Assembly (NCBI GenBank): GCA_903893545.1
Contig: CAITMJ010000010.1
Coordinates: forward strand, 29,602-93,601
Direction: 5' to 3'
DNA from: an uncultured Chlamydiae bacterium
Lineage (GTDB): Bacteria > Chlamydiota > Chlamydiia > Chlamydiales > SM23-39
Length of the DNA: 64,000 nucleotides
Positions 27,001 through 30,000 of the stretch are shown here, one piece after another. A program made the position numbers. How positions within the stretch are numbered: the stretch's first letter is position 1; the number at the start of each line of letters is the position of its first letter.

Positions 27001-30000
27001 CGATGCGAGAAAGCGCGCGATAGTCCCAAATATCCATATTAGACCTTTTTCTTAACTTAGGGTTCGTCGATTTTCGGGATTATTTTGGCCGATTTTCGAT
27101 TTAAAATGAGTAGGCCATATTCAGTCAATAAGGCCCGCTTATTTTAAATCGAAAATCGACGAACCCTAAGTTATGAAAGAGGTCTATTCTCGAAATGGTA
27201 AAGAACCCATCGCTCAAGTGCAAGAGAATATGCAATTGATCAAAAGACAGAAAAAAGCCTATCATTCCCGCAATGAACGAAATCCACCTCAAAACGATCG
27301 ACTCGACAAATACGTATGCAAAAAAGCATGCGCCCACCTTCCCAAAAGGTCAAATCACCTGCGTCATTGCAGAAGAGCAGACTGCAGGCCGAGGAAGATT
27401 TCATCGCACATGGGACTCTCCAAAAGGAGGCAACCTCTACGCCACTTTTTACTTTCTCCTCCCCGCCTCTTCAAAAAGCCTTATGAGTTTATCCCAGATC
27501 ATGGCCTGCAGCATGGCCAAGGTATTGCTTACAGAGCATTTTTCGCCCAAGATCAAATGGCCCAATGACATTCAGCTAAGTGGAAAAAAGTGCAGCGGCA
27601 TTCTATGCGAAACGAGATTCCAAGGCGAGGAGGTCGAAATATTTCTCGGCATCGGACTCAATGTCAATATGGGTCAAGATCTCCTTGGCAACATCGATCA
27701 ACCGGCAACCTCCCTTTTCGTAGAGAGCGGAAAAGAGTGGAATCAGCTCGAGATCTTGCAAAAACTACAAACGCAATTCGCCTCCGATTTAGCTCTTTTT
27801 ACCAAAAAGGGCTTTGCCCCTTTTCACAACTTTTTTGACAAGCTGCTCTTATTCAAAGGGGAAAAGATCCGCTGTTTTGATGGAAAAAAAGAATGGACCG
27901 GCCTCTTTCATTCCATCACCTCAGATGGGCAATTAAACCTACAGCTTCCCGACGGATCGATGCACACAATGCTCTCCGGCGATATATCCCATGATTGACA
28001 TGCATCCAATCCACTCTTTTCTCAATGAATGTGCGCAATTTGGCTCTCCAGGACATGAACGATTTGAGGTCATTACACAAGATGGCCAAAAATCCATTAA
28101 AACCTATGCAAGATCTACAGGCTGTTGTGGGTTGATCGATCGTTTATATAAGCCAGAACACCGCAGAATACAGAACGTCGAAGAGGTCGTATTCGATTTT
28201 CTCCACAACAATAGAAAATCCTTCATCGACAACCCAATTTCAAATCTCAGCATTAAACATCTCTACGCGTTGCGAGGAAGCCAAAGATTTAGAAATCTTT
28301 TAGAAGAGATCACAACCTCTCAGGAACAGATTGAGTTAGGCGGTCTCATCAAAGAGCATAAGAACGAGCTTCAGAAGATCTCTCATCGACTAAATCACCT
28401 ACAAGATCTCCGTTTTCAGAGAGAGAAGGAATTAGAGGATGCAAGTACAACATCCCTATGGCACTTGCAAAAAGCCGAAAAAGAGATTGAAAAAATGAGA
28501 AAACGATTCTTTGAAGGGGTACGAGTTCCTATCAAATTCGGCAACAGCCCTTCAGCGTTACTAGATAAGATCATCCAAGACACCTCGAATGGCGTCACAA
28601 TCCTTCACTGTAGTGATGGGAAAGAGGTCGCCATCAATCCTATTATTTGCAGACAATATGAGAGAAACTTCCTCACAGCGCTCCATGAGGTACACGGTAC
28701 AAGCGAAAAACCGATCCACTATCCAGTAGACATCCCGGAAGATGTTGCTCAAGTGATTGTGGATTTGCTCTATGCAAGACCAGAAATTCAGGCAAACATA
28801 ACGACACTCCTGATGGCGCTTATCTTTAGCGAGTCTCTCTCGCTAAGAGAAATCCAATCGCAAATCGAGAACATGTTAATAGCCCTTTTTCAAAAAGAGG
28901 CATTCTTTGTCATGACATCCATGGACTTTTGCGTAAAACAGTGTCTTCCCTTAAGCGTACCCGTGCAGCAATTTCTAACCTCTGCTTTTATGTGCTACAT
29001 AGAACCCATCTTCGAAAGCTCAAAAAATAGACCCAGCTTCCAAAAGATCCTCCTTTCCTTTAAATCTCATTATGAAATGTATCCCCTGGACCTAGTCTCT
29101 CTCTCAACGAATATTCCTTTATTTGTACTGAGTGGATTTTGCTATGAACACGGAATCGGCGTTTGCCAAGATGAGAACTTGAGCTTCAAGTTGTATCGTC
29201 AAGCTGCAAAACAGGGCCATGCTCCAGGTCAAACCAAACTTGCAGGATGCTACGAAGCTGGATTTGGAGTGCAAAAAAACGAAGAAACCGCCTTTAGTTA
29301 TCTCAAGCAAGCCGCGGCCCAAGGCTACGCCCCAGCAGAGAACATGCTTGGAGTATTCTATAACGCTGGAATTGGCGTTGACCTAGATTTTGCAAAAGCC
29401 GTTCAGTGTTTTGAGAAGGCAGCCAATAGCGGCAATGTCTGGGGGCTCCGCAATCTCGGCGAATGCTATTACAATGGGACGGGCAGAGAGAAAGATCTTG
29501 TAAAAGGCTGCCATTATTACAAGCTCGCCGCAGACCGTGGGTTGGCTGAAGCCCAAAGCTTGCTTGGGAATTGCTATTTCAACGGCAAAGGCGTGCCAGA
29601 AGATAAGCTTCAAGCCCTCTACTACCACCAACTAGCCTCAGCCCAAGGTTATACCCCGAGTCAAAATTGGTTAAAGCGCTTATCTCATTTTTGAATCACG
29701 TTGCGGATACAGTCAGGTGAGGAAACACCCGCGCCTGCAAAATGTTTTGGATGGCTGAAAGAGTAGACCCTGTCGAGGAGTGACAGGTTGTGCAGGCCCC
29801 TTCGTAGGCGATGAGCACTTCTAATTCTTTAATCGCCACGACTTGTACGCCGCCGGCGTCGAGTTCGATATAGGGCCGAATTTCTTTATCGATCACTTCT
29901 TCGATGATTTTTTGCTTCTGCTCAGGAGGAAATGTTTCCCAGCCGGGGATCCCGCCAGGCACATTCCCAAAATCGTACTCGATCGGCGTTGCGTCGTGAC

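What the first reader, a model, noticed from the sequence alone, without database searches (positions are those of the whole stretch)
27041..27185. 145-bp near-perfect palindrome starting 3 nt from the rodA start codon
The arms AGACCTTTTTCTTAACTTAGGGTTCGTCGATTTTCG (27041-27076) and CGAAAATCGACGAACCCTAAGTTATGAAAGAGGTCT (27150-27185) are complementary at 34 of 36 positions. A further 18-nt inner pair (27090-27107 with 27141-27158) gives a second pairing register, because CGATTTTCG occurs twice on the left side. The element is flanked by ATT on both sides; this could be a 3-bp target duplication, but it is too short to be significant. On the rodA (minus) strand, the proximal arm contains the only purine-rich SD-like sequence (AAGAAAAAGGTCTAATATG). 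A transcript containing both arms would therefore sequester the rodA ribosome-binding site in a long hairpin. The loop contains a possible outward promoter toward rodA: TTGACT, 17 nt, then TTTAAA on the minus strand. RodA is a core cell-wall/division factor in Chlamydiae, which lack FtsZ, so a structured switch or an inserted palindromic element at its start is worth testing.
Basis: partly seen in the sequence, partly recalled or inferred. Interest (0 to 1): 0.55.

Follow-up and report, generated by a model that had tools for sequence, protein, structure and literature searches.

The report
Mobile hairpin element inserted before rodA
The 145-bp palindrome next to rodA is one worn copy of an apparently undescribed family of small mobile hairpin repeats found in environmental Chlamydiales, inserted only in this lineage, and it is not a dedicated rodA switch, although it probably buries the rodA ribosome-binding site in the mRNA.

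Summary
The palindrome is real: arms 34/36 complementary, inner pair 18/18, RNA fold z = -9 to -12. It is not unique to rodA. Scans with a 20-nt arm motif found about 45 related copies or fragments in five other Chlamydiales MAGs and about 25 metagenome contigs. All sit in unrelated gene contexts. Full copies are about 170 bp. The window copy has lost 22 bp from its right arm, which creates the "second pairing register". The ATT on both sides is a genuine 3-bp target duplication (family-wide 6/12 exact, permutation p = 0.009). The closest relatives (RodA 82-88% identical) lack the element at this site, so the insertion is specific to this lineage.

The family has a conserved subterminal core and interchangeable outer ends. 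The window's type of end carries T|AG and an SD-like GAGGT. These ends lie within 1-5 nt of start codons in 8/22 elements and abut stop codons in 9/22.

At rodA the element lies between a likely near-leaderless promoter and the ATG. A native transcript would therefore bury the element-supplied AGGU in a hairpin of about -75 kcal/mol. This is inferred, not shown.

Verdict: a new MITE-like family, which is a known kind of element. No transposase was found. Interest is moderate.

The parts
27038..27040 (.). Left copy of the 3-bp target-site duplication (ATT; AAT on the rodA strand), lying between the element and the rodA start codon
   Evidence: Sequence. Family-wide, 6 of 12 complete type-A copies have identical AAT/ATT/TAT on both sides; permutation p = 0.009.
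27041..27185 (+). The element: a 145-bp type-A copy of a roughly 170-bp hairpin-forming MITE-like repeat family (orientation as scored by the family profile)
   Evidence: nhmmer profile hit at 27032-27195, E = 1.9e-38, and the only copy in the window. Inverted repeats; folds.
27041..27056 (+). Outer terminal inverted repeat, rodA-proximal (AGACCTTTTTCTTAAC; family consensus AGACCTCTTGCATAAC). On the rodA strand it reads GTTAAGAAAAAGGTCT, and the SD-like AGGT lies at 27043-27046
   Evidence: Alignment to other copies. The consensus end GCAAGAGGTCT lies 1-5 nt from start codons in 8/22 type-A elements.
27057..27101 (+). Left conserved core (TTAGGGTTCGTCGATTTTCGGGATTATTTTGGCCGATTTTCGATT), identical in copies from other MAGs (L001, L002, L003, L007). 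It contains two CGATTTTCG repeats 22 bp apart
   Evidence: Mean pairwise identity of the core is 0.88, against 0.53 for the termini.
27077..27098 (+). 22-nt segment present in the left arm only. Its counterpart was deleted from the right arm between the two CGAAAATCG repeats, which causes the 'second pairing register'
   Evidence: Full-length copies carry this segment in both arms (about 171 bp). L006 has the mirror-image deletion in its left arm.
27102..27146 (+). Variable inner stem and loop (the loop is around 27122-27126). This copy is diverged from the G-run stem typical of the family
   Evidence: The inner stem varies between copies through two-sided compensatory changes.
27147..27169 (+). 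Right core, shortened. It is the complement of the left-arm sequence type, so this copy has two left-type arms (L/L)
   Evidence: Comparison with the right arms of other copies, which read ...CGACAGAACCTAA.
27170..27185 (+). Outer terminal inverted repeat, distal to rodA (GTTATGAAAGAGGTCT)
   Evidence: One mismatch to the family end TTATGCAAGAGGTCT.
27186..27188 (.). Right copy of the 3-bp target-site duplication (ATT)
25910..27037 (-). rodA (375 aa). Its conserved start codon lies 3 nt from the element
   Evidence: ORF list; Pfam PF01098. The N-terminus MDIWDYR is conserved in relatives.
27195..27223 (-). Inferred remnant of the native rodA promoter (TTGCAC-17-TACCAT on the minus strand, 8/12 matches). 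It lies just outside the distal end of the element
   Evidence: It is positionally homologous to TTGATT-17-TAGAAT in the empty-site relative L010 and to the conserved TAGAATTCC motif in L010, L051 and L011. It is below the scan threshold in the window. This is inference only.
27273..27998 (+). birA (biotin-protein ligase), transcribed divergently. A promoter-like site TTGATC-18-TATCAT lies at 27236-27265
   Evidence: Pfam BPL_LplA_LipB on the orthologues.

Best explanation
The palindrome is a single, partly decayed copy of a non-autonomous mobile element of MITE type. Full copies are about 170 bp and almost entirely self-complementary. The family is dispersed in genomes of environmental Chlamydiales.

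Shown: the element inserted in this lineage only, into an AAT trinucleotide directly in front of the rodA start codon, and it duplicated those 3 bp.

Shown: this type of end (type A) starts with T|AG and ends with ...AAGAGGTCT. It can therefore restore a stop codon for a gene reading into it and supply a Shine-Dalgarno sequence for a gene reading out of it. Family members sit exactly in stop/start junctions far more often than chance predicts.

Inferred: in relatives, rodA appears to be transcribed with almost no leader, from a -10-like TAGAAT 3-9 nt upstream of the ATG. The insertion separated that promoter from the ATG. The native rodA transcript should now carry the whole element as a 5' leader of about 150 nt and about -75 kcal/mol, with the only SD-like sequence (AAAGGU, supplied by the element) paired in the basal stem.

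Inferred: rodA translation therefore probably depends on processing or opening of that hairpin, for example by RNase III cleavage as in Correia elements. The effect on rodA is a by-product of transposition, not an evolved switch. In operon-junction copies, the ribosome terminating at the stop codon at the base of the hairpin would melt the basal stem and free the SD, which would couple translation of the two genes.
For: - Family membership: a 20-nt arm motif finds full palindromic copies in 5 other MAGs (8 loci) and in about 25 of the 38 loci returned from metagenome contigs (the rest are chance matches). An nhmmer profile gives 45 hits in 392 kb.
- Multi-copy and recently active: 3 copies lie on one 8.3-kb contig (L004), 4 in one MAG (L001, L002, L005, L006), and 6 identical 173-bp copies in one metagenome.
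- Target duplication: 6/12 exact, 27/36 nt matching, permutation p = 0.009 and 0.006.
- Empty sites: L051 (RodA 88% identical), L052/L053 (87%) and L010 (82%) have no element and no profile hit. In the P0003 contig (85%) the gene table shows a 23-bp spacer. After removing the element and one ATT, the window reads ...TTTCGAGAAT|ATG, against ...TTCCAGAATT|ATG in L010.
- Junction occupancy: a start codon of an ORF of at least 130 aa lies 1-5 nt from a type-A end in 8 of 22 elements, against about 6% expected for random AWT sites outside coding sequence (P about 1e-5). A stop codon lies at -3 to +1 nt in 9 of 22 elements.
- Sequestration: the transcript with both arms pairs AAAGGU in the stem (-74.8 kcal/mol, z = -9.2). 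The transcript with the proximal arm only is unstructured (-13.1 kcal/mol, z = +0.6).
- Native promoter: TTGATT-17-TAGAAT ends 9 nt before the ATG in L010. TAGAATTCC is conserved in L010, L051 and L011.
- RNase III processing of MITE hairpins is documented for Correia elements (PMC10969869, PMC2649163).
Against: - No autonomous parent element or transposase was found in 392 kb of loci, so how the family moves is unknown.
- Only one copy lies in the 64-kb window, and the copy number in the source genome could not be measured.
- The family anatomy is unusual for a MITE. The outermost 15 nt are the least conserved part (0.53 identity) and the subterminal core the most conserved (0.88). Another end type (type C) shows TA duplication rather than a 3-bp duplication.
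- The promoter assignment in the window is weak (8/12 matches, below the scan threshold). One promoter-like site per region is close to the chance expectation of 0.4-0.7.
- No transcript data exist, so a start site inside the element cannot be excluded.
- Gene starts in the junction statistics come from simple ORF calls.
Confidence: 0.85

Rival explanations
1. A dedicated cis-regulatory RNA switch for rodA (a thermosensor, riboswitch-like element or RBS-sequestering leader) that evolved to control cell-wall and division machinery.
For: The SD-like sequence is paired in a very stable hairpin when both arms are transcribed. The element lies 3 nt from the start codon of a gene central to chlamydial division, which lacks FtsZ (established knowledge).
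Against: The hairpin is absent from the rodA upstream region in the relatives examined at 88%, 87% and 82% RodA identity, and by spacer length at 85%. The same sequence occurs next to many unrelated genes in other genomes. There is no Rfam match. A perfect helix of about 60 bp offers no alternative fold or ligand pocket.
Confidence: 0.04
2. The element acts as a mobile promoter: transcription starts inside it (in the loop or the proximal arm), so rodA mRNA holds only the proximal arm, with a free SD, and the hairpin never forms.
For: A transcript holding only the proximal arm is unstructured. Correia elements are known to create promoters at their ends (PMC2649163). rodA presumably remains expressed despite the insertion.
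Against: The consensus scan finds no promoter-like site on the rodA strand within 26900-27400. The loop and inner stem are not conserved in the family. Most family copies sit between co-directional genes, where read-through transcription is expected.
Confidence: 0.2
3. A REP/REPIN-type palindrome moved by a RAYT (IS200/IS605-like tyrosine transposase), not a classical MITE cut and pasted by a DDE transposase.
For: It is a long hairpin made of two inverted conserved units with a variable loop, like a REPIN. All end types begin with TAG. The conserved part is internal rather than terminal. GTAG-tagged repeats have been reported in the PVC superphylum (PMC3733652).
Against: None of the ends examined is preceded by G to give GTAG; the flanks read ATAG, TTAG or CTAG. 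Type-A copies have a significant 3-bp target duplication, which, from own knowledge, REP/RAYT mobilisation does not produce. A single arm is not itself a hairpin. No RAYT-like multi-copy ORF was seen.
Confidence: 0.07
4. A chance or locally generated palindrome, for example an inverted duplication during replication, unique to this locus and neutral.
For: There is only one copy in the 64-kb window.
Against: None of the shuffles folds as well. The 45-nt core is identical in other genomes in unrelated contexts.
Confidence: 0.01

Closest known systems
Correia repeat-enclosed elements (CREE/NEMIS) of Neisseria
   Same: Both are non-coding elements of about 100-160 bp bounded by inverted repeats, with many copies close to genes. 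Both are co-transcribed and fold into long RNA hairpins. In Correia elements RNase III cleaves these hairpins and alters expression of the adjacent gene (PMC10969869, PMC2649163). Both have a conserved core with variant ends.
   Different: Correia elements are known for creating promoters and binding IHF (PMC2649163), and their target duplication is TA (own knowledge). Here the target duplication is 3 bp (AWT), and the ends carry an SD-like GAGGT and TAG. No promoter or IHF site was detected. The host phylum differs, and no direct sequence comparison was run.
ERIC/IRU elements of Enterobacteriaceae (including Yersinia)
   Same: Both are imperfect palindromes (ERIC about 127 bp) in transcribed intergenic regions, often inside operons. 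ERIC affects mRNA fate through RNA structure and RNase E (PMC3184786, PMC10969869).
   Different: ERIC has TA flanks (PMC3184786). No SD or stop donation is reported in the papers read. The sequences show no evident relationship (no direct comparison run).
Chunjie MITE of Geobacter uraniireducens
   Same: Chunjie is a MITE of 178-235 bp with very stable predicted RNA structure (-98 to -130 kcal/mol). [quoted passage not shown]
   Different: Chunjie has 9-bp direct repeats and 21-bp conserved inverted repeats. The family here has a 3-bp duplication and variable outer ends.
REP/REPIN elements with RAYT transposases
   Same: Both form a hairpin from two inverted conserved units with a variable loop, and both occur as high-copy intergenic repeats.
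   Different: The family here has no GTAG/CGTC tag, it has a target duplication, its arms are not individually palindromic, and no RAYT was seen.
Mycobacterial interspersed repetitive units (MIRU) and Rickettsia palindromic elements (RPE); cited from own knowledge, not checked here
   Same: MIRUs occupy intercistronic spacers of operons in a way compatible with translational coupling. RPEs are palindromic repeats that spread in an obligate intracellular bacterium while preserving gene function.
   Different: MIRUs are tandem direct repeats that carry small ORFs. RPEs insert in frame within genes. Neither is a hairpin of about 170 bp that donates a stop codon and an SD.

Membership tests
[quoted passage not shown] | Small (about 50-600 bp) and non-coding | tested here: met
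   The window copy is 145 bp and full copies are 159-173 bp. The only ORF overlapping the window copy is a 70-aa GTG-start ORF that ends in the loop; it was not examined further.
[quoted passage not shown] | Terminal inverted repeats | tested here: met
   The outer 16 nt are complementary in every complete copy. 72 pairs are predicted, and 37 of them are kept through changes on both sides. Caveat: the end sequence differs between four subtypes.
[quoted passage not shown] | Target-site duplication flanking the element | tested here: met
   Type A has a 3-bp AAT/ATT/TAT duplication, exact in 6/12 copies, permutation p = 0.009. The window copy has ATT/ATT. Type C fits TA duplication in YTAR instead.
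[quoted passage not shown] | Multiple dispersed copies within a genome | tested here: inconclusive
   Met in other genomes: 4 loci in MAG CAWDYW01, 3 copies on one 8.3-kb contig, and 6 identical copies in Ga0207157. In the source organism only 64 kb is available, with 1 copy. Attempts to extend the sequence failed.
[quoted passage not shown] | Presence/absence polymorphism at orthologous sites (empty site) | tested here: met
   L051, L052/L053 and L010 have rodA-birA spacers without the element. P0003 has a 23-bp spacer by its gene table.
[quoted passage not shown] | A related autonomous IS with the same ends that supplies the transposase | tested here: inconclusive
   No ORF-bearing element with these ends and no multi-copy ORF was found in 392 kb of loci. 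Whole genomes could not be searched.
REP/REPIN (RAYT-mobilised) | Conserved GTAG or CGTC tetranucleotide at the end of the unit | tested here: not met
   The ends read A/T/C + TAG, never GTAG. The feature is as defined in PMC3733652.
REP/REPIN (RAYT-mobilised) | Association with a RAYT gene; no target duplication | tested here: not met
   A 3-bp duplication is present. No RAYT candidate was seen in the loci, but whole genomes were not searched.
Curated structured RNA families (riboswitches, thermometers, leaders) | Match to an Rfam covariance model at its gathering score | tested here: not met
   There were 0 matches in the whole window.
Correia/CREE | Correia inverted-repeat sequence, TA target duplication and IHF site in the core | not tested
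   No Correia reference sequence was compared. The TSD length differs (3 bp here against TA). The resemblance is functional and comes from the literature (PMC2649163, PMC10969869).

The most novel reading that the evidence does not exclude
The family may be more than selfish DNA: a horizontally spreading, self-contained intercistronic cassette (stop codon, long hairpin, Shine-Dalgarno sequence). Its conserved core would be kept by function or by a dedicated binding protein, while its outer ends are swapped so that different transposases can move it. It would impose translational coupling, or RNase III-dependent expression, on whatever gene lies downstream. In this organism that would put the division and cell-wall gene rodA, formerly leaderless, under hairpin-dependent control.
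Probability: 0.12. Interest if true: 0.65.

Novelty: new member of a known kind. Interest (0 to 1): 0.4.

Why it matters
- It replaces an attractive but wrong reading (a rodA switch) with a testable one: a lineage-specific transposon insertion.
- It uncovers what looks like an undescribed repeat family in environmental Chlamydiales. My literature searches found no description of MITEs in this phylum.
- The family breaks assemblies. The Logan contig carrying the identical rodA ends inside the hairpin. The element could also be mistaken for a regulatory RNA elsewhere.
- Its ends carry a stop codon and an SD, so it can sit exactly between genes.
- It has a conserved core with interchangeable ends, and that core is near-identical between genomes whose proteins are only 45-70% identical. 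Both points bear on how such elements persist and move between reduced intracellular genomes.
- For rodA, the insertion is a natural experiment: a probably leaderless essential-pathway gene has been converted to one with a structured 150-nt leader.

Tried and rejected
- Other copies in the window: a 23-mer search with 3 mismatches and nhmmer --max found none.
- Rfam at gathering thresholds over the whole window: no match.
- Plasmid collection (blastn, distant mode) with a full copy: no match.
- Two scans of viral contigs with core motifs: no match. There is therefore no sign of a phage or plasmid vector.
- Parent IS: I searched all loci for each end type outside known copies and ran all-vs-all blastp on 471 ORFs to find multi-copy transposase-like ORFs. 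Neither found anything.
- Extending the source genome beyond the window through the two outermost ORFs: neither product is on record.
- TA-duplication model for type A: rejected in favour of 3 bp. The middle and outer flank bases match as direct repeats, and the 3-bp model reconstructs an empty site closer to L010.
- Orientation bias of left/right arms relative to transcription in junction copies (about 7:3): not significant by my own tally and binomial estimate, so dropped.
- G-U wobbles that are conserved between arms: too few to argue for strand-specific RNA selection.
- Thirteen of the 38 metagenome pattern hits were chance matches and were discarded.
- Literature searches for MITEs or palindromic repeats in Chlamydiae or Rhabdochlamydia returned nothing relevant.
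Full report
**1. The observation**

- 27041-27076 and 27150-27185 are complementary at 34 of 36 positions.
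- 27090-27107 and 27141-27158 are complementary at 18 of 18.
- ATT lies on both sides, at 27038-27040 and 27186-27188.
- The rodA start codon (27037-27035, minus strand) is 3 nt from the element.

The repeat finder reports arms of 47 nt (87%) and 37 nt (84%). These are the two longest inverted repeats in the 64-kb window. As RNA the region folds at -80 to -84 kcal/mol on either strand, with z = -10 to -12 and none of 200 shuffles as stable. The palindrome is therefore real and far beyond chance. It lies in the 235-bp spacer between divergent rodA (25910-27037, minus; Pfam FTSW_RODA_SPOVE) and birA (27273-27998, plus; BPL_LplA_LipB in the orthologues).

**2. It belongs to a dispersed repeat family**

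Within the window it is the only copy. A scan of one genome per species with the 20-mer TTAGGGTTCGTCGATTTTCG found eight loci in five other metagenome-assembled genomes. These are two Rhabdochlamydiaceae, a "Chlamydiales", a "Chlamydiae", and one labelled Verrucomicrobiae that has four loci.

Every hit is a full palindromic element with the same architecture, in an unrelated gene context. A degenerate version of the motif found 38 metagenome loci, of which about 25 are true members and 13 are chance matches. A profile search gave 45 copies or fragments in 392 kb.
- One 8.3-kb contig holds three copies.
- One metagenome holds six identical 173-bp copies in different contexts, which indicates recent activity.

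Rfam, plasmid and viral collections gave nothing. I found no paper describing such elements in Chlamydiae.

**3. Anatomy of the family**

Full copies are about 170 bp. From outside to inside they contain:
- An outer inverted repeat of about 16 nt.
- A conserved core of about 45 nt per arm. The left arm reads TTAGGGTTCGTCGATTTTCGGGATTATTTTGGCCGATTTTCGATT, with two CGATTTTCG motifs 22 bp apart.
- A variable inner stem, usually a G-run.
- A loop.

The window copy is 145 bp because the 22 nt between the two CGAAAATCG motifs were deleted from its right arm. L006 has the mirror-image deletion in its left arm.

In most copies the left and right arms differ at a few fixed positions. The window copy has two left-type arms. 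L003 and L033 also have a right arm of the left-arm type, and L031 has a copy with two right-type arms.

Across 15 complete copies, mean pairwise identity is 0.86-0.88 in the cores. It is only 0.53-0.54 in the outer 15 nt and about 0.60 in the inner stem and loop. Both variable stems stay complementary: 37 of 72 pairs are kept through changes on both sides.

There are four types of outer end:
- Type A, AGACCTCTTGCATAAC (the window's type)
- Type B, GAGGTAGTTGCAAAAC
- Type C, TAGGGGACGTCTTCAAA
- Type D, AGAGACTGTTTTAAAAC

Having the termini as the least conserved part is unusual for a MITE. I leave this unexplained.

**4. Evidence that it is an insertion**

*Flanks.* Of 12 independent complete type-A copies, 6 have identical AAT, ATT or TAT on both sides, and 27 of 36 flank bases match. 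Shuffling the right flanks among elements gives p = 0.009 and 0.006. Type C copies instead fit a TA duplication in YTAR targets.

*Empty sites.* The rodA-birA spacers in the closest relatives with DNA available lack the element and give no profile hit. These are L051 (RodA 88% identical), L052/L053 (87%) and L010 (82%). A fourth relative (85%) has a 23-bp spacer by its gene table. Removing the element and one ATT from the window gives ...TTTCGAGAAT|ATG on the rodA strand, close to ...TTCCAGAATT|ATG in L010. The insertion is therefore specific to the window's lineage. A short-read assembly carrying the identical RodA breaks inside the hairpin.

**5. What the type-A ends carry**

Read outward, each end is ...GCAAGAGGTCT. 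GAGGT is a 5-nt match to the complement of the usual 16S rRNA tail (established knowledge). Read inward, each end is T|AGACC, so the flanking T plus the element's AG make TAG.
- In 8 of 22 type-A elements (including the window) a start codon opening an ORF of at least 130 aa lies 1-5 nt beyond an end. GAGG then sits 4-8 nt upstream of that start codon.
- In 9 of 22 a long ORF's stop codon lies at -3 to +1 nt from an end, often as the T|AG itself.
- A crude null, using random AWT sites outside coding sequence in the window, predicts about 6% next to a start. This gives P of about 1e-5.

L002 and L004 look like former ATGA stop/start overlaps. There the element now supplies the upstream stop codon and the downstream SD. 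Type C ends likewise provide the TAG stop for four long ORFs. Target preference and selective retention cannot be separated with these data.

**6. Consequence for rodA (inference)**

In relatives, a -10-like TAGAAT lies 3-9 nt upstream of the rodA ATG, within the conserved motif TAGAATTCC in L010, L051 and L011. In L010 the scan calls TTGATT-17-TAGAAT, ending 9 nt before the ATG. This suggests a nearly leaderless rodA mRNA with no SD.

In the window, the positionally homologous TTGCAC-17-TACCAT (27223-27195, minus strand, 8/12 matches) lies just outside the distal end of the element. It is below the scan threshold. If it is still the promoter, the rodA mRNA begins within a few nucleotides of the distal end and carries the whole element as its leader.
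- Such an RNA folds at -74.8 kcal/mol (z = -9.2). The SD-like AAAGGU is paired, and the AUG sits 3 nt from the helix.
- An RNA holding only the proximal arm is unstructured, at -13.1 kcal/mol and z = +0.6.

How rodA is still translated is unknown. The most likely routes are RNase III processing of the long helix, documented for Correia elements (PMC10969869, PMC2649163), or a start site inside the element. For junction copies, a ribosome terminating at the stop codon at the base of the stem would unwind the basal dozen pairs and free the SD. That would give translational coupling, but this is inference from geometry only.

**7. Comparison with known elements, and verdict**

The element meets the defining features of a MITE:
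- small size
- terminal inverted repeats
- target duplication
- multiple copies in other genomes
- empty sites in relatives

The one exception is that no autonomous partner was found. It lacks the GTAG tag of REP/REPIN elements and has a target duplication, so I do not file it there. Functionally it most resembles Correia, ERIC and Chunjie elements (PMC3184786, PMC10969869, PMC2649163).

It is best called a new family of a known kind of element. Three features deserve follow-up:
- ends that carry a stop codon and an SD
- a conserved core with interchangeable ends
- a core that is near-identical between genomes whose orthologous proteins are only 45-70% identical

It is not a dedicated rodA switch.

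Noticed in passing
L011:3844-3988 (GCA_040384245.1, JAWVHA010005568.1): In a relative (RodA 82% identical), the orthologous rodA-birA spacer holds a different palindrome of about 145 bp. Its arms are 34 nt at 82%, its inner arms 19 nt at 84%, and its ends read TATACC...GGTATA. It lies 12 nt upstream of the rodA ATG and is not matched by this family's profile. The same spacer therefore seems to have been occupied independently by another hairpin element.
   Followed up: partly
L010:3963-3991; L051:~130-144; L011:~3986-4000; window 27195-27223 (minus): A conserved motif TAGAATTCC, containing a -10-like TAGAAT, lies 3-9 nt upstream of the rodA ATG in three relatives. This suggests nearly leaderless rodA mRNAs in this clade.
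   Followed up: partly
window 27236-27265 (+): The only promoter-like site in the spacer (TTGATC-18-TATCAT) ends 7 nt before the birA ATG at 27273. birA may therefore also have almost no leader.
   Followed up: no
L023:791-957 and flanks: This type-A copy is nested inside another palindrome: its flanks GATCATAAGCTAAGTCCTCTTATAAAT / AATATTTAAGAGGCCTTAGCTTATCATC are inverted repeats of each other. In L043 a type-C copy abuts a remnant of a type-D end (AGAGACGGTCTC|TAGGGG). Such nesting might explain how outer ends get exchanged.
   Followed up: no
L040:1304-1368; L024:~346-395 and ~2873-2926; L050:~915-1009; L043:~395-449: Strongly shortened derivatives (about 50-95 bp) keep the outer ends but have lost most of the core. 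Several half-elements are truncated at the loop (L019, L025, L034). Decay therefore seems to proceed by deletions centred on the hairpin.
   Followed up: partly
window 8001-14000 and 56001-58000: These stretches have a clearly lower G+C content (0.39-0.41) than the rest of the window, which is mostly 0.44-0.53. A weak inverted repeat lies at 57128-57154/57267-57293 (27 nt, 74%). It lies just downstream of the stop codon of the 2121-aa ORF at 57635-64000.
   Followed up: no
window 57635-64000 (-): A complete 2121-aa ORF has its start codon exactly at the last bases of the window. Its product is not on record as an exact sequence.
   Followed up: no
L036:~3425-3600 and L041:~1800-1975: This is a chance hit of the search pattern. 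It lies in a tandem duplication of a unit of about 75 bp containing its own hairpin (GAAATCCGATTTTTAGAAAAAATCGGATTTC), and is unrelated to the family.
   Followed up: no
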